64,000 nucleotides of DNA from an uncultured Gammaproteobacteria bacterium (GCA_964425075.1 CAYRKM010000001.1:601827-665826); one strand, 5' to 3'. Shown: positions 1 to 53,822, counted from the first letter of the stretch. The notes: generated by a model not told the origin, from the sequence alone. A program made the numbers and translations.

Positions 1-921
1 ATTGTTGGAAAAAGAGGCATCTTTCTAAGAGCATCAATAATTATTACAATTATTTGTTTTGTTTGTATTTTATTGTTCAGGTTTAAACCCTCCATTGAAT
101 TTACTGGTGGTTCACGTCTCGAAGTATTGAGTGCACAAAAAATAGATATTGCAAAAGTTGAGCAAGTACTTGAAAAGAACAATATAAATGTAGTAACCAT
201 ACGTGAAAATAGTGATAAAGACATTACCATAAGAACCGATACAATCTCGGATAAAGAGAAAAATGACGCTGTTAAGAAACTCAATGATTCGGGTCTTAAG
301 GTACAAGAAAAGAGCTTTGAAACATTGGGACCCACGATTGGAGCAGAAACTCGCAACAATGCTTTAAAGGCAGTTGGAATTGCAATAATTGCAATTACTC
401 TTTATATAGCATTTGCATTTAGGCAAGTTTCTAAGCCTGTATCATCATGGAAGTTTGGAGTTTCCGCAATAATTGCATTAATTCACGATGTTTTAATTGT
501 CCTTGGAACATTTGCAATACTTGGTCATTTTGCTGGAGTTGAAGTGGACACTTTGTTTATTACCGCGGTTTTGACAATTATGGGTTTTTCAGTTCACGAT
601 ACCATAGTGGTATTCGATAGGATTCGCGAAAACCTTGTAAAAAACGTAAGACATTTATCCTTTGAAGAGGTGGTTAATAATTCATTTAATGAAACACTTG
701 CTCGCTCACTCAACACGTCAGTGACAGTGGTTTTGGTGCTGTTAGCTTTACTTTTGTTTGGAGGGGAGTCAACTAGATGGTTTATTGTAGCTTTTATGGT
801 TGGTATGATTGTGGGAACATATTCTTCGATTTTTATTGCCTCCTCAATTTTAGTTGAATGGTATAAATTAGACGAGCATGGAGGATTTAAAAAATTAAAA
901 TTTCTTAAAAAAAGAGGTTAA
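1..921 (+). CDS. secF: Protein-export membrane protein SecF (5' partial; frame open to window start, track ORF begins at TTG 73)
   Basis: KPSIEFTGGSRLEV motif and multiple C-terminal TM helices typical of SecF; in-frame upstream TM segment with no stop back to position 1. Confidence 0.75.
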   Translation: MVGKRGIFLRASIIITIICFVCILLFRFKPSIEFTGGSRLEVLSAQKIDIAKVEQVLEKNNINVVTIRENSDKDITIRTDTISDKEKNDAVKKLNDSGLKVQEKSFETLGPTIGAETRNNALKAVGIAIIAITLYIAFAFRQVSKPVSSWKFGVSAIIALIHDVLIVLGTFAILGHFAGVEVDTLFITAVLTIMGFSVHDTIVVFDRIRENLVKNVRHLSFEEVVNNSFNETLARSLNTSVTVVLVLLALLLFGGESTRWFIVAFMVGMIVGTYSSIFIASSILVEWYKLDEHGGFKKLKFLKKRG

Positions 922-1382: not shown

Positions 1383-2870
1383 CTACTTATTTAATTCCTC
1401 CAAACGTGATAGCAAATACTCTCTTGTATTTCTTGAAAGATCTTCATCAACTTCTTCAAAGAGTTTTTGTAAAATCTCTCCAATTTTTTTTCCTGGTGGA
1501 AGTTTTAATTCTCTCATTATGTCATTTCCGTCAATTGCCAAGTCATTAATTGAAAAAGGTGGATTGAGTTCTTTCTCAATCTTTTCTTTAAATTGTTTGA
1601 GTCGCCAGCTCTCAGCAGTTTTGGTTCCGCTACCAAGTCTATCGCCAATTCGAAGGTCTATCATATCAGTTACATTCTCAAGCTCTACGCGTCTTATAAA
1701 GCGTCTTACTGCACTATCTGTAATATGCTCATCAACCGTGAACATGTGCCATCTTATGAGAGTGTATAATTTTTCTTTCTGTTTTTTAGAAAGTCTTAGA
1801 CGGTCTGCAATAATTTGCGAAAGCTTTGCTCCTTCAACTTCATGGTTATAGAAGATTACATACCCCTCGTTATCAGTAGAGGCAATATACGGTTTACCAA
1901 CATCATGAATTAGGGCAGCAAATTTAACTAATGGGTCCTCTGAGGGACAATATTTTAAAGACAGTAGATTATGAGTAAACACATCGCTTGTGTGATGCCT
2001 GCCAGGACGCACCTGAGAAACTCCTTTTCCTTTCGAGAGCTCCGGAAGGATTATATCAAGAAGTCCAACTTCATCAAGCAAAAGCATTCCATCATATGCA
2101 TTTGGAAGGCTTAGAATTCTAAATAGTTCGTCGCGTATTCTCTCGTTTGATACGTGGGAAATGAGCGACGCATCATTTTTGATTGCAGATAATGTTTTCT
2201 CTTCAATCGTAAAGCCAAGTTGGGTTGTAAAGCGAATTGCTCTTAAGAGCCTAAGAGCATCTTCCTTAAAACGTTCATCGGGATTGCCAACTGCCCGAAG
2301 TATTTTATTTTGAAGGTCTTTTTGTCCATTTACCAAATCAACGACTTCAGCGTTGTTATCTTTATCCAGTTTTATTGCAAGAGCATTTACGGTGAAGTCT
2401 CGTCTTTTGACATCCTCCTCAAGGGTAGTTCCCCATTCAACTTTTCCAGGGTGTCTAAAGTCAGTGTATCCATTCTCTGTTCTAAAAGTTGTAATTTCTG
2501 CATATTCTTTTCCGGATTCATTTGGAGTGTTGTACTTAACCCCCACAGTACCAAATGAATTATCATCACTCGCTAATTCATTTGTAGTGTTGTACTTAAC
2601 TCCCACAGTACCAAATGAATTATCATCACTCGCTAATTCATTCGGAGTATTGTACTTAACTCCCACAGTACCAAATGAATTATCGTAGAAAGAGTCAGGG
2701 AAAACTTGTTGAATTTGCTCAGGAGTGGCGTTAGTTGTCATGTCCCAATCAGTAACTTCATGAGAGAGCAAGAGGTTTCGTACGCACCCACCCACAAGAT
2801 ACACTTCATATCCTGAGTCAGTTAATTTTCTATAAATTCTTACTACCTTTTCAGGTATATTTTTTTGCAT
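1383..2870 (-). CDS. cca: CCA tRNA nucleotidyltransferase / polyA polymerase family with HD domain
   Basis: N-terminal LVGGCVRNLLL head motif, RRDFTVNA, C-terminal HD (HDVGKP); contains 3x in-frame 20-aa repeat insertion. Confidence 0.8.
   Translation of the reverse strand: MQKNIPEKVVRIYRKLTDSGYEVYLVGGCVRNLLLSHEVTDWDMTTNATPEQIQQVFPDSFYDNSFGTVGVKYNTPNELASDDNSFGTVGVKYNTTNELASDDNSFGTVGVKYNTPNESGKEYAEITTFRTENGYTDFRHPGKVEWGTTLEEDVKRRDFTVNALAIKLDKDNNAEVVDLVNGQKDLQNKILRAVGNPDERFKEDALRLLRAIRFTTQLGFTIEEKTLSAIKNDASLISHVSNERIRDELFRILSLPNAYDGMLLLDEVGLLDIILPELSKGKGVSQVRPGRHHTSDVFTHNLLSLKYCPSEDPLVKFAALIHDVGKPYIASTDNEGYVIFYNHEVEGAKLSQIIADRLRLSKKQKEKLYTLIRWHMFTVDEHITDSAVRRFIRRVELENVTDMIDLRIGDRLGSGTKTAESWRLKQFKEKIEKELNPPFSINDLAIDGNDIMRELKLPPGKKIGEILQKLFEEVDEDLSRNTREYLLSRLEELNK
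2514..2686. repeat. 60-bp tandem direct repeat (~2.9 copies) inside cca coding region, in frame
   Basis: Units at 2521-2580, 2581-2640 and partial 2641-2685 nearly identical; encodes DNSFGTVGVKYNTPNELASD x3. Confidence 0.9.
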
Positions 2871-14744: not shown

Positions 14745-16550
14745 ATGAAATCATTAAAAGCAGTAGCACAACTAGAACGCTTGGTATGGGCAGATGTATT
14801 AAGAGTAGTAGCAATTTATTTGGTACTTGTAGTTCATGCTTCCACAATGCCCTCATCAGCCTTTCCATTAAGTAATTCTTGGCCATACATAATTTCCTTT
14901 TCAATTGCAAAAATATGCGTGCCACTTTTTGTGATGTTAAGTGGCGCACTTCTTTTGGAAAAAAAGGAAACTTATAAAATGTTTTTCAAAAAAAGAATTT
15001 TAAAAGTGCTAACCCCTTGGATTGTTTGGACAGCGATTTATATGGGAATTAATTACTACACTAGAGATTTTCAACCACAAACTTTTTCTGAATGGAAATA
15101 TTATTTTACGCTGACTTTCTTTACTGAATTGTGGTTCCTACCTCTTATTTTTTCCATTTATTTATTAACTCCTATTATAAGACTTACCATTCCGTTATTA
15201 AAAAAAACTGACAAGATTTACATCATAATTTTGTGGTTTGTGTGGGTGTCGATTTTACCTTTCTTCAATTCAAGTCCCGCTTTTCCAAAACCATTCAACT
15301 CAGGACTTCTTTCATTGGCCGTATATTTTTCCGGGTACTTTCTTTTGGGCCATTTTTTAACAAAAATTAAGTATCCCAAGAATACTTTATGGTTCTCAAG
15401 TGTACTAATTATATTAGGCATACTAATTAATTTTGTTTCACTCTTTTTAGTTAATGAAAACGAATTAGTTCAATACCAAAGTTCTATTTTTGACTATATA
15501 GCACCTGATGAGTGGGGTTCAAACTCAATTGTTATTTCAAAATATGGAGCCAGAATAACCGTCGCATCAACTGAACAAAGCATAAGAGGATTAAGACACG
15601 GTGAGTATCGCCCAGACTTAGTCATATGTGATGATGTGGAAGATTTGAATAGTGTTAAAACACGAGAAGGTAGAGATAAAACATTTCAATGGTTAGTAGG
15701 AGAAGTTTTGCCAATTGGAGATCAGGGGACAAAGATTGTCATTGTAGGAAACCTACTACATGAAGATAGTCTCTTAATGAGATTGAAACAAGGAATCGAA
15801 AACCAAAAGTTAAATGGTAAGTTTTTTGCTTATCCACTCTTAGGCAAGGATAATGAAATTGCATGGAAGGATAAATTTCCTTCTCAAATCGATGTTGAGA
15901 AATTGCGCTCAAGTATAGGAACTGATTCAGCATGGTATAGAGAGTACCTTCTTCGAATCATCTCTGATGCAGAACGACTAGTCCATCCTGAGTGGATTGC
16001 CTATTACGATAAATCGCCTTCTGAAAGAGCTAATGGATTTAGATTTATTGCAACAGGTGTTGATCTTGCTATATCGCAAAAGGACTCAGCCGATTTCACA
16101 GCAATGGTGTCTGCAAAAATATTCGGACAGAAAGATGATCTAAGAGTTTATATCTTACCTTTCCCAATTAACAAAAGACTTAGTTTTCCAGAAACTTTTG
16201 AACAAGCAAAGAATCTTTCTGAAAATTTAGGAAATGGTCTTTACACAATGCTCTATATTGAAGATGTTGGGTATCAACAATCTTTAATCCAACACTTACA
16301 GGGGAATAATATTCCTGCAGTTGGAGTAAAGGTGTCAGGACAAGACAAAAGAGCAAGGCTTGCTTTAATAACCCATCTTATAAAACAAGGTAAAATACTT
16401 TTCCCGAAAAAAGGAGCAGAAGAATTAATACAACAGCTTACAGGTTTTAGCATTGAGAAGCATGACGATTTGGCAGATGCATTTTCCCTTCTAATTCTCA
16501 AGATTCAGGAGATGGATAATAAGCCTACATTCGATTACAGTTTTATCTAG
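14745..16550 (+). pseudogene. Chimeric ORF: acyltransferase-3 family membrane protein N-terminus (aa 1-~246) fused in frame to C-terminal ~355 aa of a phage terminase large subunit (lacks ATPase Walker A)
   Basis: N-terminus has Acyl_transf_3 pattern (LRVVAIYLVLVVHA, VPLFVMLSGALLL); from ~15483 the protein is ~85% identical by eye to residues ~132-490 of TerL at 29787..31313. Confidence 0.6.
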
Positions 16551-16551
16551 G

Positions 16552-16767
16552 CTAAAACAAATCAGACATATTAACCCTCAAAGCTTTAGCCAGCTTTGTC
16601 ATCACCTTAAGCGATGGTGATTTTCTTCCTTGCTCGATGTGACCCATGTGAGTCCTGCTGATATGAATTTTCTCGGCCAACTCTTCTTGAGATAAGCCCA
16701 TATTTTTTCTGAGCTTCTGAATCCTTTTACCCAGCCTTTCTTTTGTTTGTTTTTGACCTAAAATCAT
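16552..16767 (-). CDS. XRE-family HTH transcriptional regulator
   Basis: LRKNMGLSQEELAEKIHISRTHMGHIEQGRKSPSLKVMTKLAKAL helix-turn-helix. Confidence 0.8.
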   Translation of the reverse strand: MILGQKQTKERLGKRIQKLRKNMGLSQEELAEKIHISRTHMGHIEQGRKSPSLKVMTKLAKALRVNMSDLF

Positions 16768-16885
16768 AAGTTAATTTTGATAGCTATAAGCAATCAACTC
16801 TACTAGCTTAAAGCGAGCAATTAGCTTCAAATACTGCTTGCTTTTATGTTCACTTTCGCTTATCATTCAAATTAGAGGAATAAAT

Positions 16886-17386
16886 ATGGCATTATCTGAA
16901 GAACAGAAAATCAAAATTAAAGAAGAAGAGAAAAAGAAGCTTGAGGAAGAGAAATATAGAGAGAATGTAAAGAAAAATCTTAAAAAGGGACCTTGGTGGA
17001 AACCTAGGGGAGTATTAGCGTGGGTCGCAGTAGTCTTTATAATTGGATGGATTATTTATGCTGTATCTACCAACTCTTCTACAAGTACACCTCCTAAAGA
17101 TACAACTAATCTAGATGGAAATGTTTCCTATAATGATTTGCAATTCAAGGTAAGTAATACCGAACAAAAAGATTGGGAATATTGCCACTTTACTCTAAAT
17201 AATGATTATCATTATCCGGGAAGCTCTTTTAGCGATAAAGCTGGGCCAATTAAGGCTGGTGAAACTGTGTTTATTAATGCGTCAAATTTTGCAAAAAGCG
17301 ATGGTACGAGATTTAATCCCTATTCGGTAAAGCCACAGGCTATAAATGTAGATTGCAACGGAAGATTCGGCTACTGGAAATGGTAA
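16886..17386 (+). CDS. Membrane-anchored DUF4352-like protein with Lys/Glu-rich N-terminal coiled coil
   Basis: KKGPWWK then TM helix then beta-rich extracellular domain; positional equivalent of DUF4352 gene at 31663. Confidence 0.4.
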   Translation: MALSEEQKIKIKEEEKKKLEEEKYRENVKKNLKKGPWWKPRGVLAWVAVVFIIGWIIYAVSTNSSTSTPPKDTTNLDGNVSYNDLQFKVSNTEQKDWEYCHFTLNNDYHYPGSSFSDKAGPIKAGETVFINASNFAKSDGTRFNPYSVKPQAINVDCNGRFGYWKW

Positions 17387-17456
17387 ACCTCAAGCTATCC
17401 TTATAAGATTCTCCTACTAGACTTCACAAAACACCTGCGGTACCTTGTGTCCTGAG

Positions 17457-18797
17457 ATGGATAACAGTAACGTATTAGCAAGAGCACCTATAGTTTCATT
17501 ACCTACAACTGAATACTGTCTTTATGCCAGAAAATCGACAGAAGATGACGAAAGACAAGCTATGTCAATCGATTCTCAAATTAAGGAGATGAATGATATG
17601 GCTATACGAGACGGTCTGTTTATCAAAGAAATCCGCCAAGAGAAACATTCGGCTAAAATGTCTGGACAAAGGCCAGTATTTGCAAAATTAATTGAAGATA
17701 TTCGAATTGGAATGTTTACAGGCATTTTGACATGGGCGCCAGATAGATTAAGTAGAAACGCAGGCGACTTAGGGATGTTGGTAGATCTTATGGATCAGGG
17801 AAGCTTACATCACATAAAAACCTTTTCTCAAAGTTTTTCTAATAATCCGAATGAGAAATTTTTACTTATGATCCTATGTTCTCAGGCGAAATTAGAAAAT
17901 GATCAAAAAGGAATAAATGTTAAAAGAGGAATTCGTGCAAAATGTTCAATGGGCTGGCGTCCAGGGATGCCGCCCATCGGTTATTACAATAGAGCTTTTA
18001 ATGGAGTGAAAGATATAATTGTAGATCCTGATAGAGGCCCAATAATCAGAGAAATGTTTGATCGAGTAGCAAAAAATGGAGATAGTGGTAAGACTTTAAA
18101 GAAGTGGCTAGACACTTGCTTAACCACTAGAGCTGGAAAGAAAGTGACACTAAGCCAGATTTATATGATGCTTAAAAATCCTTTTTACTACGGGGAATTT
18201 GAATATCCTATAAACAGCGGCAATAGATATAAAGGAGCTCATCCACCTTTAATATCTAAGGAAATATTTGATGAGGTACAAAATCAACTAACTGCACCCA
18301 AGAGAGGCTGGGGATTTAAAACATTTGCCTTTAAAGATTTATTTAAATGTGGGAATTGTGGGTCAAGTGTAATTGGAGAAGAAAGGTGGAGAAAGAGAAA
18401 AGCAAGACCCCCAGTTCATCACGTCTATTATCATTGTACGCGGCAGAAAAATTGGGATTGTAAAGAACCGTATCTAACGGAGGAAAAATTAATAAAAGAA
18501 TTACTACGATATATCAATTTTAACGTTATTGCCCATCCACAAACTATAAATATTACTCCGGAGCTAAAAAGATATATGAATGAATACGAAAAAGCTAGAG
18601 AAATAACCCTCCTCCAGCAAGATATTGATCCAGACCACATCCAGTTTGGAATCTATGAATATTCTCAATATGCACTTAAGAACGGCTCAATTGAGGAGAA
18701 AAGAGAAGTAATAACTTCAATAAAAACACAGCTGTATATTCACAATCAGTTTATTAGTTCATTATCTAAAGTAAATGATGCACTAGTATCTAGTTGA
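17457..18797 (+). CDS. Large serine recombinase (resolvase catalytic domain + recombinase domain + zinc ribbon)
   Basis: YARKSTEDDERQ nucleophile-serine motif, recombinase domain, CGNCGS...YYHCTRQ zinc ribbon; ~80% identical by eye to paralog at 47374. Confidence 0.85.
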   Translation: MDNSNVLARAPIVSLPTTEYCLYARKSTEDDERQAMSIDSQIKEMNDMAIRDGLFIKEIRQEKHSAKMSGQRPVFAKLIEDIRIGMFTGILTWAPDRLSRNAGDLGMLVDLMDQGSLHHIKTFSQSFSNNPNEKFLLMILCSQAKLENDQKGINVKRGIRAKCSMGWRPGMPPIGYYNRAFNGVKDIIVDPDRGPIIREMFDRVAKNGDSGKTLKKWLDTCLTTRAGKKVTLSQIYMMLKNPFYYGEFEYPINSGNRYKGAHPPLISKEIFDEVQNQLTAPKRGWGFKTFAFKDLFKCGNCGSSVIGEERWRKRKARPPVHHVYYHCTRQKNWDCKEPYLTEEKLIKELLRYINFNVIAHPQTINITPELKRYMNEYEKAREITLLQQDIDPDHIQFGIYEYSQYALKNGSIEEKREVITSIKTQLYIHNQFISSLSKVNDALVSS

Positions 18798-22548: not shown

Positions 22549-22692
22549 CTATGATTGGAATTCGAACCGCAACCTCGGTATTCAGATGTTTAAAGGTGTG
22601 AATAGTGAGGGTACGGTGAGATACTAACACGTGCTTGCTGAGAGGCTCGGTCTAGAACCTTCTTATCCTTATAACGATTGTCTCACATCAAG

Positions 22693-22730
22693 GCTAAATG
22701 AGACAAACGAGACACTATAAAAAAGGGTGT
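22693..22730 (+). repeat. Copy A of conserved hairpin motif (aGGCTAAATGAGACAAAyGAGACACyATAAAA)
   Basis: Near-identical 38-nt stretch also at 53786-53822; contains GTCTCA...TGAGAC stem. Confidence 0.6.
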
Positions 22731-45081: not shown

Positions 45082-47304
45082 ATGAGTAACAAAACATATA
45101 CCTGTCCAATGCATCCTGAAGTCAGAAAAGACAAGCCTGGTGTTTGTCCTAAATGTGGCATGGCACTTGTTGAAGTAAAGAATGATAAACATGGAATGCA
45201 TGAAAGTCATTTGAGCCATGAGCATACAATGAAATCCCTTGATCAAATGTCATTTTGGGAAAAATTCAAGATGAGTATGACTATGACAATGGGTATGGAC
45301 CATACAGGGAAAGCAGGACGTGAGATGGCGAAGCTAATGGAAGAGGATATTCGAAATAAGTTTTTGGTCTCTCTTCTTTTGACACTTCCAATTGTTGCCT
45401 ATTCTCCACTTGGAAAGAACATCTTTGGTCTTAATCTACCAACGCCGATTCCTGAGAATTGGTTAATGCTGTTACTGACAACTCCTGTTTATTTTTATTG
45501 TGGTTGGATATTCCTTTACTCAAGTTATATTGCTCTTAAACAAAAGACGCTCAATATGGCAGTTTTGATTGCCGTTGGCATTACTGCGGCCTATGTCTTT
45601 AGTATTGTTTTAACTCTTTTAGGATCTGAAGAATCTTTTTATGAAGCAGCAGCAATGCTTACTACTTTTGTCCTCTTTGGTCATTGGATGGAAATGAAAT
45701 CAAGGCGTGGCACAACTGATGCCCTTCAGGCCCTATTTAATCTCGTTCCCCCTCAAGCACGAGTAATGAGAAATGGCAAAGAGCAGTTAATTCCTACCTC
45801 AGAAGTTGTATTAGGAGATATTGTCGTTCTTAAGCCTGGCGATAAAGTGCCGGTTGACGGGGAAATTATAGAAGGAGAAACGTCAATAGACGAATCACTT
45901 GTTACAGGTGAATCAATACCTGTTGCCAAGAAAAAGGGAGATAGTGTCATTGGCGGTTCCATCAATACTTCAGGATCAGTACAATTCAATGCCACAAAAG
46001 TAGGAGGAGATACAGCGCTAGCACAGATTGTAAAGATGGTAGAAACAGCTCAGAACTCAAAAGCTCCCGGGCAGAAGCTTGCTGATAGGTTTGCCAAGTA
46101 TTTAGTTATTGTAGCTGTTGGAGGAGGATTACTAACCTTTGCAGTATGGTTTTTAATTCTCGGCCAACCATTCTTATTTGCAGTCACATTTGCCATTTCA
46201 ACAGTTGTTATTGCCTGTCCTGATGCTCTTGGACTTGCAACACCTACAGCGGTGGCAGTAGGAACAGGACTTGGAGCCAAACACAACATTTTGATTAAAG
46301 ACGCTCCGACACTTGAACAGGTATCCAAGATCCAAGCCGTAGTGTTAGATAAAACAGGCACTCTCACAGAAGGAAAGCCACAAGTGACAGGTATTGCAAC
46401 CGCAAAAGGGTTTTCAGAAAAAGAAGCACTAAGACTCGTGGGAGCCGCAGAGGTAAAATCTTCTCATCCTTTAGCAAACGCCGTAATCGAAGAGCTGAAA
46501 AAAAGAAAACTTGCTTTGCCTACATCAATAGAAAAATTTGAGAATCTTTCTGGGCTTGGCGTAAAAGCCACAGTAGAAGGTAAAAAGGTACTTGTCGGGA
46601 CAGTGAAATTGATGAAAGAAAATAGCGTTGATGTAAAGCCTCTCGAAAACAAAATTAATGAATTTTTAGAAAACGGAAATACTATCATGCTTCTTGCAGT
46701 TGAAGGTACCATTTCAGCTCTTGTAGGAGCTGCAGATCCAATAAAAGAGAATGCAAAAAAAGCTATAGATAAATTAAATGAATTAGGCATAGAAACTGCA
46801 ATGATCACTGGGGACAACGAAAAAACAGCACAAGTAGTTGCGAAGAAGATTGGTATCAAACGAGTATTTGCCGATGTCATGCCTGAAGATAAAGCTTCAT
46901 ATGTTAAAAAGTTGCAGCAAGAAGGAAAATTTGTGGCTATGGTTGGCGATGGTGTAAACGATGCGCCTGCACTTGCTCAAGCAGATATAGGAATTGCTAT
47001 TGGTGCCGGAACGGATGTAGCAATAGAAACAGCGAAAGTTGTACTTATGAAATCTGATCCAGCAGATGTGCTTCGCGCTATTAGACTCTCCAAAGCAACA
47101 GTAAGGAAAATGAAACAAAACCTATTCTGGGCATCTATTTATAATCTTTTGGCAATTCCTGTGGCTGCTGGAGTTCTTTACCCTGCTTTCCAGATTTCGC
47201 TACGTCCCGAAATATCAGCTCTTCTGATGAGCATTTCCTCAATCATTGTTGCAACAAATGCAGTCCTCCTTAATAGAGCAGAAAAAGACCTTATAAGTGT
47301 GTAA
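45082..47304 (+). CDS. Heavy-metal P1B-type ATPase with N-terminal CxxC x2 metal-binding domain, His-rich stretch and non-canonical CPD TM6 motif
   Basis: YTCPMHPE...CPKCGM; HGMHESHLSHEH; IACPDALGLATP; DKTGTLT; GDGVNDAP. Confidence 0.85.
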   Translation: MSNKTYTCPMHPEVRKDKPGVCPKCGMALVEVKNDKHGMHESHLSHEHTMKSLDQMSFWEKFKMSMTMTMGMDHTGKAGREMAKLMEEDIRNKFLVSLLLTLPIVAYSPLGKNIFGLNLPTPIPENWLMLLLTTPVYFYCGWIFLYSSYIALKQKTLNMAVLIAVGITAAYVFSIVLTLLGSEESFYEAAAMLTTFVLFGHWMEMKSRRGTTDALQALFNLVPPQARVMRNGKEQLIPTSEVVLGDIVVLKPGDKVPVDGEIIEGETSIDESLVTGESIPVAKKKGDSVIGGSINTSGSVQFNATKVGGDTALAQIVKMVETAQNSKAPGQKLADRFAKYLVIVAVGGGLLTFAVWFLILGQPFLFAVTFAISTVVIACPDALGLATPTAVAVGTGLGAKHNILIKDAPTLEQVSKIQAVVLDKTGTLTEGKPQVTGIATAKGFSEKEALRLVGAAEVKSSHPLANAVIEELKKRKLALPTSIEKFENLSGLGVKATVEGKKVLVGTVKLMKENSVDVKPLENKINEFLENGNTIMLLAVEGTISALVGAADPIKENAKKAIDKLNELGIETAMITGDNEKTAQVVAKKIGIKRVFADVMPEDKASYVKKLQQEGKFVAMVGDGVNDAPALAQADIGIAIGAGTDVAIETAKVVLMKSDPADVLRAIRLSKATVRKMKQNLFWASIYNLLAIPVAAGVLYPAFQISLRPEISALLMSISSIIVATNAVLLNRAEKDLISV

Positions 47305-47373
47305 TTTTGATTAATCCTCATAGTATTTTGCGTCTGGACTTCAAAGAACGGTTGCGGTACCTTGTCCCCTGAT

Positions 47374-48702
47374 ATGAACTACCAGAATGAATTATTACAG
47401 CAACCAACTCAAACACAACCGCTGGTTATTGAATATTGTCTCTACGCACGAAAATCCACAGAAGATGACGAGCGCCAAGCGATGTCAATCGATTCTCAAA
47501 TTAAAGAGATGACTGACATGGCGATCAAAGAAGGACTCTTTATCAAAGAAATCAGACGAGAAAGTCATTCTGCTAAAATGTCAGGACAACGACCAGTCTT
47601 CAATCAACTTCTCAATGACTTAAGAAATGGTCTATTCACCGGAATTCTCACATGGGCTCCGGATCGATTATCAAGAAATGCAGGAGATTTAGGAATGCTG
47701 GTTGATATGATGGATGGCGGAAAACTCATTCACATTAAAACATTTACGCAGGCATTCTCAAACAGTCCAAGCGATAAATTTTTACTCATGATTCTCTGCT
47801 CTCAAGCAAAACTCGAGAATGACCAAAAAGGGATAAATGTTAAACGAGGTATCAGAGCTAAATGCAATATGGGATGGAGACCAGGGATGCCACCAATCGG
47901 TTATTTCAACAGAGCAATGGCTGGGATAAAAGATATTATTCCTGACCCTGAAAGAGCACCATTTGTGACAGAAATGTTTGAAAGAGTTGCGAGGAACGGA
48001 GATAGTGGACGAACACTCAAAAAATGGCTGGATACATGCCTTACAACAAGGGCGGGAAAGAGAGTCACGCTAAGTCAGATTTATCTCATGCTCAAGAATC
48101 CTTTCTATTACGGGGAATTTGAATATCCAATTGGAAGCGGTAATTGGTATAAGGGATCACATAAGCCATTAATTACCAAAGAGCTATTTGATCAAGTCCA
48201 GAAACAACTTACAGTGCCATTTAAAAAAGCAAAATGGGGAAGCAAAATGTTTACCTTCAAAGAACTCTTTAAATGTGCAAGCTGCGGATCATTAGTAATT
48301 GGTGAGGACAGATATAGAAAGAGAAAATATGGAGAGCCGAGGTATCATATCTACTATCATTGTACTAGACAAAAGAAGTACGGCTGTCCTGAGCCATACT
48401 TAACAGAAGAAAAGCTTGTAAAGCAAATTCTTCGATATCTTAATTTTATGTACATGGCACACCCGCAAATATTTACCTTCAAGGAATTTATAAAACAAAG
48501 CATGGAAGCATATAAGAAAATGAGAGACGAAATTCTCTGGGCGCAAGATATAAACCCTGAGAATAAGCCTGTACATTTTATGGATTATGCAAATTATATT
48601 TTCAGAAATGGAACACTGCAAGAAAAACGAGAAATAACGAATATCCTCAATCGACAACTCTATATACACAACGAAACGGTCACTTCAGTACCCCTTATCT
48701 AG
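47374..48702 (+). CDS. Large serine recombinase (paralog of 17457..18797)
   Basis: Same motif set; conserved upstream TGCGGTACCTTGT..CCTGA.ATG shared with paralog. Confidence 0.85.
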   Translation: MNYQNELLQQPTQTQPLVIEYCLYARKSTEDDERQAMSIDSQIKEMTDMAIKEGLFIKEIRRESHSAKMSGQRPVFNQLLNDLRNGLFTGILTWAPDRLSRNAGDLGMLVDMMDGGKLIHIKTFTQAFSNSPSDKFLLMILCSQAKLENDQKGINVKRGIRAKCNMGWRPGMPPIGYFNRAMAGIKDIIPDPERAPFVTEMFERVARNGDSGRTLKKWLDTCLTTRAGKRVTLSQIYLMLKNPFYYGEFEYPIGSGNWYKGSHKPLITKELFDQVQKQLTVPFKKAKWGSKMFTFKELFKCASCGSLVIGEDRYRKRKYGEPRYHIYYHCTRQKKYGCPEPYLTEEKLVKQILRYLNFMYMAHPQIFTFKEFIKQSMEAYKKMRDEILWAQDINPENKPVHFMDYANYIFRNGTLQEKREITNILNRQLYIHNETVTSVPLI

Positions 48703-49267
48703 ATGATTTTCTCTTTCGTTTCTTTAAAACAAAAGCAACTAGTCCTAGTCCCAAAGCACCTCCAATGATGGGTAAAAGCATATTTGTATTAACAGACTTC
48801 TCTACAGTTTCACTTGTCTGGGAACTGGATAAATCCTGAGTATAACCATTTGGTGAATATCCACTGCCAAGAACTGCTCTATCTTCTTCCGAAAGATTTC
48901 CTGTAACTTCTTTATTTCCCATGCATGCATTTGTTTTAAGGTTACCTGAGTCCATTTTTAGAAAAAGGAGATATTTTTTGTCCTCTTCAAACGCAAAATC
49001 GACAGACGTTACTGTACCTGGAGCTTCTTGTCCACTTACCTCAATCTGAGAAGGTCCACCATGACCTTTAAAGTATCGCTCGACATTAAATATAGCTGGA
49101 GTATCAGCTATACTTGTTACTCTACCTAACACGACAATATCTGCCTGTTCTTTATATTCAGCTAATGACACAGCAGGAGCACAGGAAGCAAAGGCAACAT
49201 GAGGAGTAAAGGATAAGAGCGAAAAAAGTGCGATTATAAAGGTAAATAGTATATTTCTAAGTTGCAT
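48695..49267 (-). CDS. Secreted protein with signal peptide and C-terminal TM anchor plus basic tail
   Basis: N-terminal hydrophobic leader; C-terminal LLPIIGGALGLGLVAFVLKKRKRKSSR sorting-signal-like segment. Confidence 0.4.
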   Translation of the reverse strand: MQLRNILFTFIIALFSLLSFTPHVAFASCAPAVSLAEYKEQADIVVLGRVTSIADTPAIFNVERYFKGHGGPSQIEVSGQEAPGTVTSVDFAFEEDKKYLLFLKMDSGNLKTNACMGNKEVTGNLSEEDRAVLGSGYSPNGYTQDLSSSQTSETVEKSVNTNMLLPIIGGALGLGLVAFVLKKRKRKSSR

Positions 49268-49466
49268 GTTTATAAAAGGATTATACCAAAAATTTTCTGT
49301 TTGAATCCTAACTCTGCGGTTAAGTAGGACATATATGAACCTTAGCCTTAATATGGGGATTTTGAGGGTGTTTTGCCGGTCCGAATGTTTCCCGTCTTGA
49401 AGGGGATTTTAGCAAGCCCCTTCAAGCTAAATAGGGAATACGGTCACTCTAGGGTGCCCGTCTCAG

Positions 49467-49537
49467 CTGGGAGTCAGGGATTTGAACCCCAATAAACAGA
49501 TCCAGAATCTGTTGTCCTACCATTAGACGAACTCCCA
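49467..49537 (-). tRNA. tRNA-Gln (anticodon CUG), U1-A72, discriminator G, CCA not encoded
   Basis: Manual cloverleaf: acceptor TGGGAGT/ACTCCCA, D stem GTCT/GGAC, anticodon stem ACAGA/TCTGT with loop TTCTGGA, T loop TTCAAAT. Confidence 0.7.
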
Positions 49538-49658
49538 AAAAATTTGTTCGATTTATTGCCATTCGTCTAATGTCGAACTCATTAGACGAACTCCCATTGA
49601 GTTCACATATTTTACTAGATTTGATCATTTATTGCTATTCTAGTGATAAAATTATGAA

Positions 49659-52517: not shown

Positions 52518-53591
52518 TCATTCGTTATAAGGTGTAAATTTCGTTAGATAATTATTTTCAATATCTTCTTTTTTTGCCAAGGTTACATCAACTACTATTG
52601 CTCCAATGTTTTTTTGCCCGTAAATAACCAATGAGTTTAATGGTGCAAAAAGTACGCTTGGTATTACCAATAAGTCTTCCTCGCCAAATATTTTGATAGC
52701 TAATTTTATATTTTCTTTAAATGCTTTAGTGATTGTTTTTTGGATCCCTAGCGCCGTCCTTGAATTTATAGTGCCAGGCTTGTTATTAAGAGCAACATTC
52801 ATAGCTGGAAGTGATGCAAGAACATCATTTGGTATTTTGGTTCTGGAGTTAATATGATCATAAATTGAAATGTTCGGAATAATACCTTTCTTGACAAGGT
52901 TATAAACGACAATATCGCCCACTGCGATTATAAATTTATCCTTTAATTCAAATGGCGCAAATTCTTTAACTATATACCCAAGTGGTTTTTTAAATTCTTC
53001 CCTGTATTTTTCCAAAAGCGTAAAGCTTTCTGCCTTACCAAAAAAGTCAGCATAATGAATTCCAAAGTCATTTGTAAGACCGAGTCTTATATTGCTTGAG
53101 GAAATTATTTCTCCAGCCTCATTTTTTAGCATTTCGACTTTTATGATTTCAAGAGGTGGGAAATTAATTTTTATTCTCTCCTCATTTATTCTTTCTGCAT
53201 TTTTTATATTGTCCTCAGTTACAAAAATCGCATCGATATTTTTCTCCTCCAATGTTATTCCATAAATATTCTCGATTGGTATAATTTCTGCCTGGGTAAA
53301 TAGATTTTCTGTTTTAAGAAAATTAATAAGAGCCGATTTCCTATCTTCAAAGGGTGCAATGGGGGAAGGAGTTTTGTTTTGCACAAAGTTATCGGAAGTA
53401 AGGCCAATTATCACCTTGTGAGACTTTTCAAACGCACTTTTAATAAAAAAGATATGTCCATTGTGAAGATTGTCAAAAGTTCCACCAATGACTACAGTGT
53501 TAAATTTTTTCATGAAGAAAGTTTGTGCTCTGATTATATCAGAGCAATCTATTTGAGGACTGGGGGAGGTTCGAATTAAGCTAGTAAACAC
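52518..53591 (-). CDS. Cytidylyltransferase-like (archaeal-type PPAT-like) domain fused to DUF359-like domain (candidate archaeal-type CoA biosynthesis fusion); start probably Met27
   Basis: VVIGGTFDNLHNGH (GxFDxxHxGH) nucleotidyltransferase motif; C-terminal region with AVGDIVV pattern reminiscent of DUF359 GTP-dependent dephospho-CoA kinase. Confidence 0.5.
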   Translation of the reverse strand: MFTSLIRTSPSPQIDCSDIIRAQTFFMKKFNTVVIGGTFDNLHNGHIFFIKSAFEKSHKVIIGLTSDNFVQNKTPSPIAPFEDRKSALINFLKTENLFTQAEIIPIENIYGITLEEKNIDAIFVTEDNIKNAERINEERIKINFPPLEIIKVEMLKNEAGEIISSSNIRLGLTNDFGIHYADFFGKAESFTLLEKYREEFKKPLGYIVKEFAPFELKDKFIIAVGDIVVYNLVKKGIIPNISIYDHINSRTKIPNDVLASLPAMNVALNNKPGTINSRTALGIQKTITKAFKENIKLAIKIFGEEDLLVIPSVLFAPLNSLVIYGQKNIGAIVVDVTLAKKEDIENNYLTKFTPYNE

Positions 53592-53785
53592 GAGTTTGGT
53601 GTGGGTTTGGGTTTCGTCGTAGCATTAAATCTGTGACCCGTAGGAGAGTCGAACTCCTCTTACTAGGATGAGAACCTAATTTCATCGCTACCTTGATGCA
53701 AGCATCAAGGGTAACCAATAGAATGTGACCCAAACGGGTTCGGAACCATATAGGCCTTATAGCGGTTCTTTGGACTGTCTCACCT

Positions 53786-53822
53786 TGAGGCTAAATGAGA
53801 CAAATGAGACACCATAAAAGAG
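53786..53822 (+). repeat. Copy B of conserved hairpin motif (GAGGCTAAATGAGACAAATGAGACACCATAAAA)
   Basis: Matches 22693-22730 with 2-3 substitutions; preceded by weaker ~50-nt similarity. Confidence 0.6.

What the first reader, a model, noticed from the sequence alone, without database searches (positions are those of the whole stretch)
49396..49600. tRNA-Gln with a 17-bp direct repeat of its 5' end and adjacent perfect hairpins
CATTAGACGAACTCCCA (tRNA positions 1-17, plus strand 49521-49537) recurs at 49580-49596. The two copies are separated by an inverted copy (ATTCGTCTAATG, 49561-49572) that can pair with the second repeat. A perfect 10-bp hairpin (CTTGAAGGGG/CCCCTTCAAG, 49396-49426) lies 3' of the tRNA. 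The serine recombinase gene ends ~750 bp away. This may be the right-hand boundary (att scar) of the island or a tRNA-processing/terminator structure.
Basis: seen in the sequence. Interest (0 to 1): 0.5.

Follow-up and report, generated by a model that had tools for sequence, protein, structure and literature searches.

The report
tRNA-Gln leader relic beside island junction
The repeated 17-mer is a truncated second copy of the tRNA-Gln 5' end sitting in the gene's own upstream leader, and related bacteria without the island have it too, so it is not the island's scar; the island actually joins the chromosome at the other (3') end of the tRNA.

Summary
The window is from a Levyibacteriota (CPR) bacterium.

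**The 17-mer repeat is not an att scar.**
- It lies upstream of tRNA-Gln, on the host side, behind the lineage's conserved TAGTAAAAT promoter.
- Three island-free relatives (L175, L009, L014) carry the same layout: tRNA nt 1-17 or 1-20, a 7-14 nt loop, an inverted copy of the D-arm strand, 15-24 nt, then the tRNA.
- In L175 the copy matches that species' own, different acceptor sequence.

**The island ends at the tRNA's 3' end.**
- The island is a large-serine-recombinase (LSR) element widespread in CPR metagenomes.
- Near-identical elements sit next to different tRNA-Gln genes, and homology stops within the last few tRNA bases.
- The 10-bp hairpin lies inside a roughly 110-nt conserved island terminus that always abuts tRNA-Gln.

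**Best reading.** The repeat is an old local direct-plus-inverted duplication, transcribed as pre-tRNA leader. It forms an 11-bp hairpin and is removed by RNase P. Whether it has a function is unresolved.

**By-product.** Related loci carry GIY-YIG nuclease genes embedded between a partial 5' tRNA copy and the full tRNA.

The parts
49466..49537 (-). tRNA-Gln(CTG), complete host gene
   Evidence: ARAGORN and Rfam RF00005 at 58.6 bits. Its promoter region is orthologous to those of relatives.
49580..49596 (-). Distal truncated copy of tRNA nt 1-17 (TGGGAGTTCGTCTAATG), in the leader
   Evidence: Exact 17/17 repeat, the only second copy in the window. Homologous copies are in L009, L175 and L014.
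49573..49579 (-). 7-nt hairpin loop (AGTTCGA on the tRNA strand)
   Evidence: The loop is identical in L009. It is ATCACGA in L175, and related with a 7-nt insertion in L014.
49562..49572 (-). Inverted arm CATTAGACGAA, the reverse complement of tRNA nt 7-17
   Evidence: I2. Local alignment to the reverse-complemented tRNA gives p about 0.007 against shuffles. The arm matches at 10/11 in L175 and 7 nt in L009 and L014.
49538..49561 (-). 24-nt A/T-rich spacer between the hairpin and the tRNA 5' end (TGGCAATAAATCGAACAAATTTTT)
   Evidence: It contains a copy of the -35-region box (D5) and a TCGAACAnAT stretch resembling the leader of L009, L010 and L014.
49609..49617 (-). Lineage-conserved extended -10 box TAGTAAAAT, the inferred tRNA-Gln promoter, upstream of the distal copy
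   Evidence: The same box lies upstream of tRNA-Gln in L009, L010, L012, L013, L014, L040 and L175. The promoter role is inferred; there are no transcript data.
49627..49640 (-). Box GAATAGCAATAAAT, repeated as GAATGGCAATAAAT at 49551-49564 inside the spacer
   Evidence: D5, 13/14. L175 has an analogous species-specific pair, ATTAGCAC x2 (D2). This indicates the duplication unit included promoter and leader DNA.
49462..49470 (.). Island/chromosome junction (serine-recombinase att junction) at the 3' end of tRNA-Gln
   Evidence: Homology with L083 (LSR 94% aa) stops at ..CAGC|T.AGACGGGC. L119 and L120 carry the same element next to different tRNAs. Six contigs end 120-125 nt beyond this point.
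49356..49465 (-). Conserved ~110-nt island-terminal region with blocks GTGACCGT, CTCTA, GCTTGCTAA and TTCGGACCG
   Evidence: It directly abuts the tRNA-Gln 3' end in most of the LSR loci that carry tRNA-Gln (26 were aligned). This holds even when the LSR is 3-4.5 kb away. It is absent from LSR-free tRNA-Gln loci. RNAalifold finds no consensus RNA structure.
49396..49426 (-). 10-bp hairpin whose loop carries the conserved GCTTGCTAA box
   Evidence: It is shared only with L040 (A->G giving G-U) and L083 (extra C-G pair). No U tract follows, so it is not an intrinsic terminator.
48695..49267 (-). 190-aa cargo ORF (N-terminal hydrophobic stretch read as a signal peptide, C-terminal hydrophobic stretch read as a membrane anchor) between the island terminus and the recombinase
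   Evidence: no Pfam hit. Homologues sit at the same position in L040 and L083.
47362..48702 (+). Large serine recombinase LSR#2 of the island
   Evidence: Pfam Resolvase + Recombinase + Zn_ribbon_recom. About 40 of 89 homologue loci have a convergent tRNA-Gln downstream.

Best explanation
**The 5' repeat is host DNA, not island DNA.**
- The 17-mer is the start of a truncated second copy of tRNA-Gln.
- It lies inside the gene's own transcribed leader.
- I infer that it arose from an old, purely local rearrangement of the A / inverted-A / A type, i.e. serial template switching or fold-back repair.
- That event copied promoter-leader DNA plus tRNA nt 1-17, and inserted a reverse-complement of nt 7-17 between the copies.

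**How it would behave (inferred).**
- Transcription starts at the conserved TAGTAAAAT promoter, upstream of the distal copy.
- The nascent leader folds so that the distal copy pairs with the inverted arm, giving an 11-bp hairpin.
- This keeps the anti-tRNA arm away from the real tRNA. RNase P then removes the whole ~65-nt leader.
- The structure is dispensable, since two relatives lack it. It is kept matched to the evolving tRNA by concerted evolution or weak selection.

**The island (shown).**
- It is a phage-like element carrying an LSR, plus copper-resistance cargo.
- It is joined to the chromosome at the 3' end of the same tRNA.
- The 10-bp hairpin is part of the island's conserved ~110-nt terminus, next to the recombinase crossover site.
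For: **Repeat and arm are non-random.**

**The promoter box lies upstream of the distal copy.** It is orthologous to the tRNA-Gln promoter of seven relatives.

**The same architecture occurs without an island.**
- L175 has no LSR and no terminal motif; an acetyltransferase ORF starts 10 nt after the tRNA.
- L009 and L014 have only Lon as a shared gene.
- L009 shares a 31-nt block, TGGGAGTTCGTCTAATGAGTTCGACATTAGA, with unrelated flanks.
- The L175 copy is TGCCGATTCGTCTAATG, identical to its own tRNA. It differs from the window's at 4 acceptor positions.
- The L175 arm matches at 10/11, while loop and spacer match at only about 55-60%.

**The duplicated unit includes leader and -35 DNA.** This points to a DNA-level duplication (D5; 31-nt repeat in L175, 27-nt in L014).

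**Spacer pieces trace to local sequence.**
- AGTTCG is tRNA nt 5-10.
- CATTAGACGAA is the reverse complement of nt 7-17.
- GAATGGCAATAAAT is a copy of the box at 49627-49640.
- L009 and L010 also carry an inverted T-arm fragment in the promoter region.

**Analogous structures recur.**
- All four short-spacer loci (window, L009, L014, L093) have an inverted D-arm copy.
- A partial 5' copy lies upstream of 9 of 51 tRNA-Gln genes. None lies downstream.

**Island junction at the 3' end.**
Against: - There are no transcript or processing data. Promoter, leader and RNase P removal are all inferred.
- A useless 59-nt insert surviving in small CPR genomes across species with only 83-87% Lon identity argues for a function I cannot name. 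So does a copy that tracks four acceptor-stem substitutions.
- The thermodynamic optimum in all four species pairs the distal copy, not the real 5' end, with the tRNA 3' strand. The energies (kcal/mol) are -45.5 vs -41.4, -45.8 vs -44.9, -51.3 vs -47.1 and -45.1 vs -43.8. The 'harmless leader' picture therefore depends on co-transcriptional folding.
- The template-switch origin is a reconstruction from sequence patchwork, not an observed event.
- The island's far end was not found, so its integration is documented at one junction only.
Confidence: 0.55

Rival explanations
1. The repeat is the footprint of a GIY-YIG homing cassette. In related Patescibacteria, small GIY-YIG nuclease genes sit between a partial 5' copy of a tRNA and the complete tRNA. 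The window's 42-nt spacer would be what remains after the ORF was deleted. Such an allele might persist because its endonuclease target is split.
For: **Cassettes observed.** The layout is promoter, tRNA nt 1 to ~13-41 with GC hairpins, a 79-91 aa GIY-YIG ORF, then the full tRNA. It occurs in these loci:
- tRNA-Gln: L015, L099, L119, L124, L165-L169.
- tRNA-Glu: L012.
- tRNA-Asn: L109, L172/L173.
- tRNA-Arg: L170.
- Sources.

**Association with tRNAs.**
- 16 of 21 GIY-YIG hits lie directly upstream of a tRNA on the same strand.
- The rest lie within about 150 nt of a tRNA or pseudo-tRNA.

**Size series.** ORF-less intermediates of 120 and 83 nt exist (L043, L143). They form a series down to the 52-73 nt class that includes the window. 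In both classes the copy breaks in the D-loop region.
Against: - The window has no GIY-YIG ORF anywhere.
- The spacer shows no recognisable coding remnant; stops occur in two frames.
- The window's hairpin is built from the D-arm itself. It is not one of the GC-rich palindromes typical of the cassettes.
- Every piece of the spacer can be derived from local sequence.
- No cassette carrying the window/L009 31-nt block was found.
Confidence: 0.2
2. The leader is a selected RNA device. The 5' mimic plus the anti-D-arm make the pre-tRNA bistable between a correct cloverleaf and a locked form. In the locked form the mimic takes the acceptor 3' strand and the arm takes the real D-arm strand. This would tune tRNA-Gln maturation or yield a leader-derived small RNA.
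For: - Copy and arm are conserved against a diverged loop and spacer in four species.
- The copy co-varies with the acceptor stem in L175.
- The two folds are near-isoenergetic in all four species.
- An unrelated lineage, L093, has similar geometry: copy, loop, arm, 15-24 nt, then the tRNA.
Against: - L010 and L040, from the same clade, lack the structure.
- The arm has decayed to 7 nt in L009 and L014.
- No true compensatory change is seen in the stem. The 5' arm is fixed by identity to the tRNA, and L175 shows a mismatch rather than a compensation.
- Only four homologous examples exist. No Rfam family matches.
Confidence: 0.2
3. The repeat is an att scar of the island, or of an earlier integrase-borne element: direct repeats left by site-specific integration into the tRNA gene.
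For: - An island with a recombinase gene ends 764 bp away.
- The 11-7-11 dyad resembles a recombinase core site.
Against: - The copies are of the 5' end, lie on the host side, and are 42 bp apart.
- The same structure occurs in island-free relatives.
- The element boundary maps to the tRNA 3' end.
- Partial copies are no more frequent at LSR-linked tRNA-Gln genes (5 of about 40) than at LSR-free ones (4 of about 11).
- Serine recombinases leave no long direct repeats (established knowledge).
- The window contains no tRNA-Gln 3' remnant.
Confidence: 0.03

Closest known systems
tRNA-gene att sites of integrative islands and prophages (tyrosine-integrase type; my own knowledge)
   Same: A partial tRNA sequence is repeated next to a tRNA gene that borders a mobile island.
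   Different: - In the known type the repeat is of the tRNA 3' part and the two copies flank the element.
- Here the repeat is of the 5' 17 nt, and both copies lie on the host side, 42 bp apart.
- An inverted copy sits between them.
- The structure exists in relatives without any island.
Large serine recombinase attL/attR junctions (phiC31, Bxb1, A118 type; my own knowledge)
   Same: - The real island end lies next to the LSR gene.
- It has no long direct repeat.
- It is defined by an abrupt loss of homology between elements sitting in different hosts.
   Different: - The target is the 3' end of tRNA-Gln, which I believe is unusual for this recombinase class.
- A ~110-nt conserved terminal region, far longer than a ~25-bp half-site, always accompanies it.
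- Recombination itself was not tested.
Quasipalindrome / template-switch rearrangements (direct-inverted-direct 'DUP-INV-DUP' structures; my own knowledge)
   Same: - The order is A, loop, inverted A, spacer, A.
- There are microhomologies at the joints, for example GAA between the arm and the duplicated box.
- The spacer is a patchwork of local sequence.
   Different: - The scale is tens of bases.
- The structure persists across species.
- The copy tracks changes in the tRNA.
Free-standing GIY-YIG homing endonuclease genes in tRNA clusters (phage T4 SegB, PMC2330249)
   Same: Related Patescibacteria loci carry GIY-YIG genes tightly linked to tRNA genes.
   Different: - Those cassettes lie inside the tRNA leader.
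- They are preceded by a partial 5' tRNA copy carrying GC hairpins.
- Their ORFs often stop inside the tRNA.
- The window itself has no such ORF.
Group I introns in Patescibacteria tRNA genes (PMC13011429)
   Same: tRNA genes of this phylum are frequent hosts of inserted elements. In several cassettes the ORF begins at the anticodon-loop position of the partial copy.
   Different: - No group I intron or any other Rfam family matches.
- A complete, uninterrupted tRNA follows, so no splicing is needed.

Membership tests
att direct repeat of a tRNA-integrated island | The repeat derives from the tRNA 3' segment that the element carries in attP. | tested here: not met
   The repeat is tRNA nt 1-17, the 5' end.
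att direct repeat of a tRNA-integrated island | The two copies flank the mobile element. | tested here: not met
   The copies are 42 bp apart and both lie upstream of the tRNA, whereas the island lies downstream. No other copy occurs in the window at up to 3 mismatches, and there is no 3' remnant.
att direct repeat of a tRNA-integrated island | The repeat is absent from island-free relatives. | tested here: not met
   L175, L009 and L014 have the structure without an LSR or the terminal motif.
Large serine recombinase att junction | The element boundary (loss of homology between the same element in different hosts) lies near the recombinase gene. | tested here: met
   This is met for the tRNA 3' end at about 49462-49470 (window vs L083; L119 vs L120). 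It is not met for the 17-mer.
Large serine recombinase att junction | Recombination between attL and attR regenerates attB and attP with a 2-bp crossover. | not testable with these tools
   The far end of the island was not identified. The left side is truncated by a deletion inside a terminase gene at about 15.5 kb.
Intrinsic (rho-independent) terminator | A G+C-rich stem-loop immediately followed by a U tract. | tested here: not met
   Neither the hairpin at 49396-49426 nor the leader hairpin was called. The first is followed by ACGGGAAAC, and the second is 18 nt from the U run.
GIY-YIG cassette embedded in a tRNA leader (seen here in related loci) | A partial 5' tRNA copy lies upstream of a complete tRNA, behind the host promoter. 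| tested here: met
GIY-YIG cassette embedded in a tRNA leader (seen here in related loci) | A GIY-YIG ORF lies between the partial copy and the tRNA. | tested here: not met
   The spacer is 42 nt. tblastn with six cassette proteins finds nothing in the window.
GIY-YIG cassette embedded in a tRNA leader (seen here in related loci) | A GC-rich palindromic hairpin is inserted in the D-loop or at position 26 of the partial copy. | tested here: not met
   The window's hairpin is A/T-rich and is formed by the D-arm strand with its own inverted copy.
Any curated RNA family (Rfam 15) | A covariance-model match at or near the gathering score. | tested here: not met
   Only tRNA matches. The remaining hits have E >= 5.

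The most novel reading that the evidence does not exclude
The partial 5' tRNA copies upstream of tRNA genes in Patescibacteria, including this one, may be the signature of an undescribed kind of intron-less homing cassette.

- The cassette would be a GIY-YIG nuclease gene that lives in the transcribed leader of its target tRNA.
- It would carry a replacement 5' part of that tRNA.
- It would be expressed from the pre-tRNA, with its stop codon often inside the tRNA.
- The short ORF-less forms would be conserved because the mimic plus anti-D-arm make a bistable, self-decoying precursor.
Probability: 0.2. Interest if true: 0.7.

Novelty: new variant of a known kind. Interest (0 to 1): 0.42.

Why it matters
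**Practical.** It corrects where this copper-resistance island ends. It also shows that a widespread family of Patescibacteria serine-recombinase elements uses the 3' end of tRNA-Gln, with a conserved ~110-nt terminus. That is useful for delimiting such islands and for mining recombinase/att pairs.

**Biological.** A tRNA leader that contains a copy of the tRNA's first 17 bases plus its complement is an odd construct, and it is kept in step with the tRNA across species.
- If it is selected, it would be a new way of gating tRNA maturation.
- If it is a relic, it marks tRNA-Gln's 5' region as a recurrent rearrangement hot spot. That hot spot may be driven by the GIY-YIG cassettes seen in sister lineages.

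The window's own feature is small and may well be functionless.

Tried and rejected
**Model M1: the island carries its own tRNA-Gln and crosses over in the host tRNA D-loop.** This would make the 17-mer an attL. I rejected it for four reasons.
- No 3' tRNA remnant occurs in the window or the loci.
- Nothing tRNA-like lies downstream of LSR#1.
- Host genes (GluRS, MFS) lie directly upstream of tRNA-Gln in L099, L106 and L085.
- L119 and L120 show the same element beside different tRNAs.

**The 11-mer tRNA match at 15513-15523.** It is part of terminase coding sequence shared with the second terminase copy, so it is coincidence.

**The conserved island terminus as a structured RNA.** RNAalifold finds no consensus pairs in 26 sequences.

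**Group I intron or another known RNA over the cassettes or L083.** None was found.

**The spacer as a coding remnant of a GIY-YIG C-terminus.** This was unconvincing.

**Searches that found nothing.**
- The 21-mer and a degenerate hairpin pattern gave no hits in IMG/VR.
- Closer Lon relatives at 97%, 89% and 88% identity gave no tRNA-Gln next to Lon, or no DNA, so no strict empty-site allele of this species was obtained.
- The L083 sequence beyond the junction has no homologue in any fetched locus.
- The left border of the L119/L120 element is mosaic and could not be used to define the second att junction.

**Caveat on a computation.** The forced fold-II constraints were mis-indexed for L175, L009 and L014. 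For those three species only the fold-I and unconstrained energies are used.

Full report
**1. Observation**

The window comes from a Candidatus Levyibacteriota (Patescibacteria/CPR) genome. Its Lon protease is 83-89% identical to Lon of Levyibacteriota MAGs.

- tRNA-Gln(CTG) lies at 49466-49537 on the minus strand.
- The 17-mer occurs exactly twice, at 49521-37 and 49580-96. This holds even with three mismatches allowed, against 0.08 expected.
- On the tRNA strand the upstream copy is tRNA nt 1-17.
- It is followed by a 7-nt loop (AGTTCGA) and then by CATTAGACGAA, the perfect complement of nt 7-17.
- Next come 24 A/T-rich bases and then the complete tRNA.
- The copy and the arm fold into an 11-bp hairpin of -15.3 kcal/mol, z = -3.8.
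- The 10-bp hairpin at 49396-49426 is also real, at -17.2 kcal/mol.
- Neither hairpin has a U tract. Nothing but tRNA matches Rfam.

**2. What the island is**

Left of the tRNA lies a composite mobile region. It contains:
- two paralogous large serine recombinases (LSRs), at 17445-18797 and 47362-48702, 68% identical to each other;
- two terminase copies, a ParB-methylase, other methylases and a helicase;
- a copper-resistance cargo of two P-type ATPases, a multicopper oxidase and DsbD-cupredoxin.

Its left part is truncated. ORF 14745-16550 fuses an acyltransferase N-terminus to a terminase C-terminus.

Homologues of LSR#2 are abundant in metagenomes. They sit in a conserved module: ParB-methylase, methylase, small and large terminase, optional cargo, then the LSR. 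About 40 of 89 such loci have a convergent tRNA-Gln (CTG or TTG) just beyond the recombinase.

**3. Where the island ends**

Four lines of evidence place the junction at the 3' end of the tRNA.
- A ~110-nt conserved region directly abuts the tRNA-Gln 3' end in these loci, even when cargo puts the recombinase 3-4.5 kb away. It has blocks GTGACCGT, CTCTA, GCTTGCTAA and TTCGGACCG. It is absent from tRNA-Gln loci without an LSR.
- L083 has an LSR 94% identical to LSR#2 and is colinear with window 45675-49469. Homology stops at ..CAGC|T.AGACGGGC, the last bases of the tRNA, and unrelated DNA follows.
- L119 and L120 carry the same element, about 97% identical through the terminus, next to different tRNA-Gln genes and unrelated upstream DNA. 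Identity drops inside the last ~8 tRNA bases.
- Six independent contigs stop 120-125 nt beyond the tRNA 3' end. A de Bruijn assembler would do this at a branch point located there; this reading rests on my own knowledge of assembler behaviour.

Host genes (GluRS, MFS) lie directly upstream of the tRNA in L099, L106 and L085. The tRNA and everything upstream of it are therefore host DNA.

The 10-bp hairpin lies 40-70 nt inside the island terminus, and its loop is the conserved GCTTGCTAA box.
- The stem itself is shared only with L040 and L083, with a G-U change and an extra C-G pair.
- RNAalifold finds no family-wide structure.
- I read the terminus as the recombinase's element-side att arm plus further, unassigned DNA signals. 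Its function is not established.

**4. The 5' repeat is independent of the island**

The lineage's conserved extended -10 box (TAGTAAAAT) lies upstream of the distal copy in the window. The same box precedes tRNA-Gln in L009, L010, L012, L013, L014, L040 and L175.

Three relatives without any LSR or terminal motif near tRNA-Gln carry the same, alignable structure.
- **L009** shares a 31-nt block, TGGGAGTTCGTCTAATGAGTTCGACATTAGA, between otherwise unrelated flanks.
- **L014** has nt 1-20, a related loop with a 7-nt insertion, and the arm CCATTAG.
- **L175** (Lon 83%) has its promoter, 32 nt, and then TGCCGATTCGTCTAATG. That copy is identical to its own tRNA, whose acceptor differs from the window's at four positions. 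A 7-nt loop ATCACGA follows, then CATTAGCCGAA (10/11), then 20 nt, then the tRNA. An ordinary acetyltransferase gene comes next.

L010 and L040, from the same clade, lack the structure.

**5. Origin**

The duplicated unit extends into leader and promoter DNA.
- The window repeats the box GAAT(A/G)GCAATAAAT (D5).
- L175 has a 31-nt repeat at 87% and an ATTAGCAC pair. L014 has a 27-nt repeat.

The window spacer is a patchwork of local sequence.
- AGTTCG is tRNA nt 5-10.
- The arm is the reverse complement of nt 7-17, joined through a GAA microhomology to the box copy.
- A TCGAACAnAT stretch follows, like the leaders of L009, L010 and L014.

L009 and L010 additionally have an inverted T-arm fragment in the promoter region.

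All four short-spacer loci (window, L009, L014, and the unrelated L093 with two tandem 73-nt units) combine a direct copy with an inverted D-arm copy. This A / inverted-A / A pattern is what serial template switching or fold-back repair produces. That reading is an inference.

Across all fetched loci, 9 of 51 tRNA-Gln genes have a partial 5' copy within 600 nt upstream, and none has one downstream. For other tRNAs the count is 2 of 36.

**6. How it probably behaves**

If transcription starts at the conserved promoter, the leader contains the mimic and the anti-D-arm.
- Formed co-transcriptionally, the hairpin would sequester the arm, and RNase P would discard the leader.
- Thermodynamically, however, the best fold in all four species uses the distal copy for the acceptor stem and lets the arm pair with the real tRNA. 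The precursor is therefore potentially bistable.
- Conservation of copy and arm against a diverged loop and spacer could reflect selection. So could the copy tracking the acceptor stem in L175.
- The same pattern could instead reflect concerted evolution (gene conversion, quasipalindrome correction).
- With four homologous examples and no true compensatory change, I cannot decide between these.

**7. The GIY-YIG connection**

The longer partial copies in related loci bracket small GIY-YIG genes (Pfam E 1e-11 to 1e-18). Their layout is:
- host promoter;
- tRNA nt 1 to ~13-41, interrupted by GC-rich palindromic hairpins;
- a start codon at or after the pseudo-anticodon loop;
- a 79-91 aa ORF whose stop often lies inside the real tRNA's D-loop;
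- the complete tRNA.

This is seen for tRNA-Gln, Glu, Asn and Arg. Of 21 GIY-YIG hits, 16 lie directly upstream of a tRNA on the same strand.

ORF-less intermediates exist (L043, L143). The window's structure could therefore be the end stage of such a cassette. Against that, it has no ORF, no GC palindrome and no coding remnant.

I found no description of this arrangement in the searchable literature. T4 SegB (PMC2330249) and Patescibacteria tRNA group I introns (PMC13011429) are the nearest precedents.

**8. Verdict**

- The att-scar interpretation of the 17-mer is refuted. The island boundary is at the tRNA 3' end, and the 3' hairpin is island DNA.
- The 5' structure is a host-encoded, island-independent, multi-species leader feature of duplicative origin with unresolved function.

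Noticed in passing
L015, L099, L119, L124, L165-L169 (tRNA-Gln); L012 (tRNA-Glu); L109, L172, L173 (tRNA-Asn); L170, L171 (tRNA-Arg): Small GIY-YIG genes (79-91 aa) are embedded in tRNA leaders. Each is preceded by a partial 5' copy of the same tRNA carrying GC-rich palindromic hairpins. Each is followed within 0-68 nt by the complete tRNA, and the stop codon often lies in the tRNA D-loop. In L171 a tRNA-Arg copy has three hairpin insertions (D-loop, position 26, T-loop).
   Followed up: partly
window 15506-18797 and 26540-48702; loci L074-L162: A conserved Patescibacteria mobile module: ParB-methylase, methylase, small and large terminase, optional cargo, LSR, a ~110-nt terminus, then tRNA-Gln. 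The window holds one full copy with ~16 kb of copper-resistance cargo, plus a truncated second copy with a 68%-identical recombinase.
   Followed up: partly
window 14745-16550: A chimeric ORF with an acyltransferase N-terminus (Pfam Acyl_transf_3) fused in frame to a terminase C-terminal domain. It marks a deletion junction at about 15.5 kb that removed the left part of the older element.
   Followed up: partly
window 22676-22725 and 53773-53822: A 50-nt direct repeat (86% identical), 31 kb apart, containing the palindrome TGTCTCA..TGAGACA. One copy lies inside the island and the other 67-116 nt upstream of tRNA-Glu(CTC). It may be a shared operator or promoter element.
   Followed up: no
L075, L089, L114, L125, L126, L152 (contig ends): Six independent metagenome contigs stop 120-125 nt beyond the tRNA-Gln 3' end. 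This would be expected at an assembly-graph branch point at the island/tRNA junction, implying mixed populations with and without the element, or with different ones.
   Followed up: partly
L009 2574-2587 and the equivalent position in L010: The promoter (-35) region of tRNA-Gln contains a 14-nt inverted copy of the tRNA's own T-arm (ATTTGAGCCCCAAT, 93% complementary). This is further tRNA-derived patchwork upstream of the gene.
   Followed up: no
L085 6332-6646: Two complete tRNA-Gln(CTG) genes lie in tandem. The distal, host-side one is followed by the island terminus, and a second copy abuts the recombinase stop codon. In this element a tRNA-Gln is carried as cargo.
   Followed up: no
window 2516-2684: A 60-nt-period tandem repeat (about 95% identical copies) inside ORF 1383-2870 on the minus strand.
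   Followed up: no
window 52518-53591: A fusion ORF with a cytidylyltransferase-like domain plus DUF359. A similar two-domain gene lies near Lon in relatives (L163, and at about 40% identity in L006-L008).
   Followed up: no
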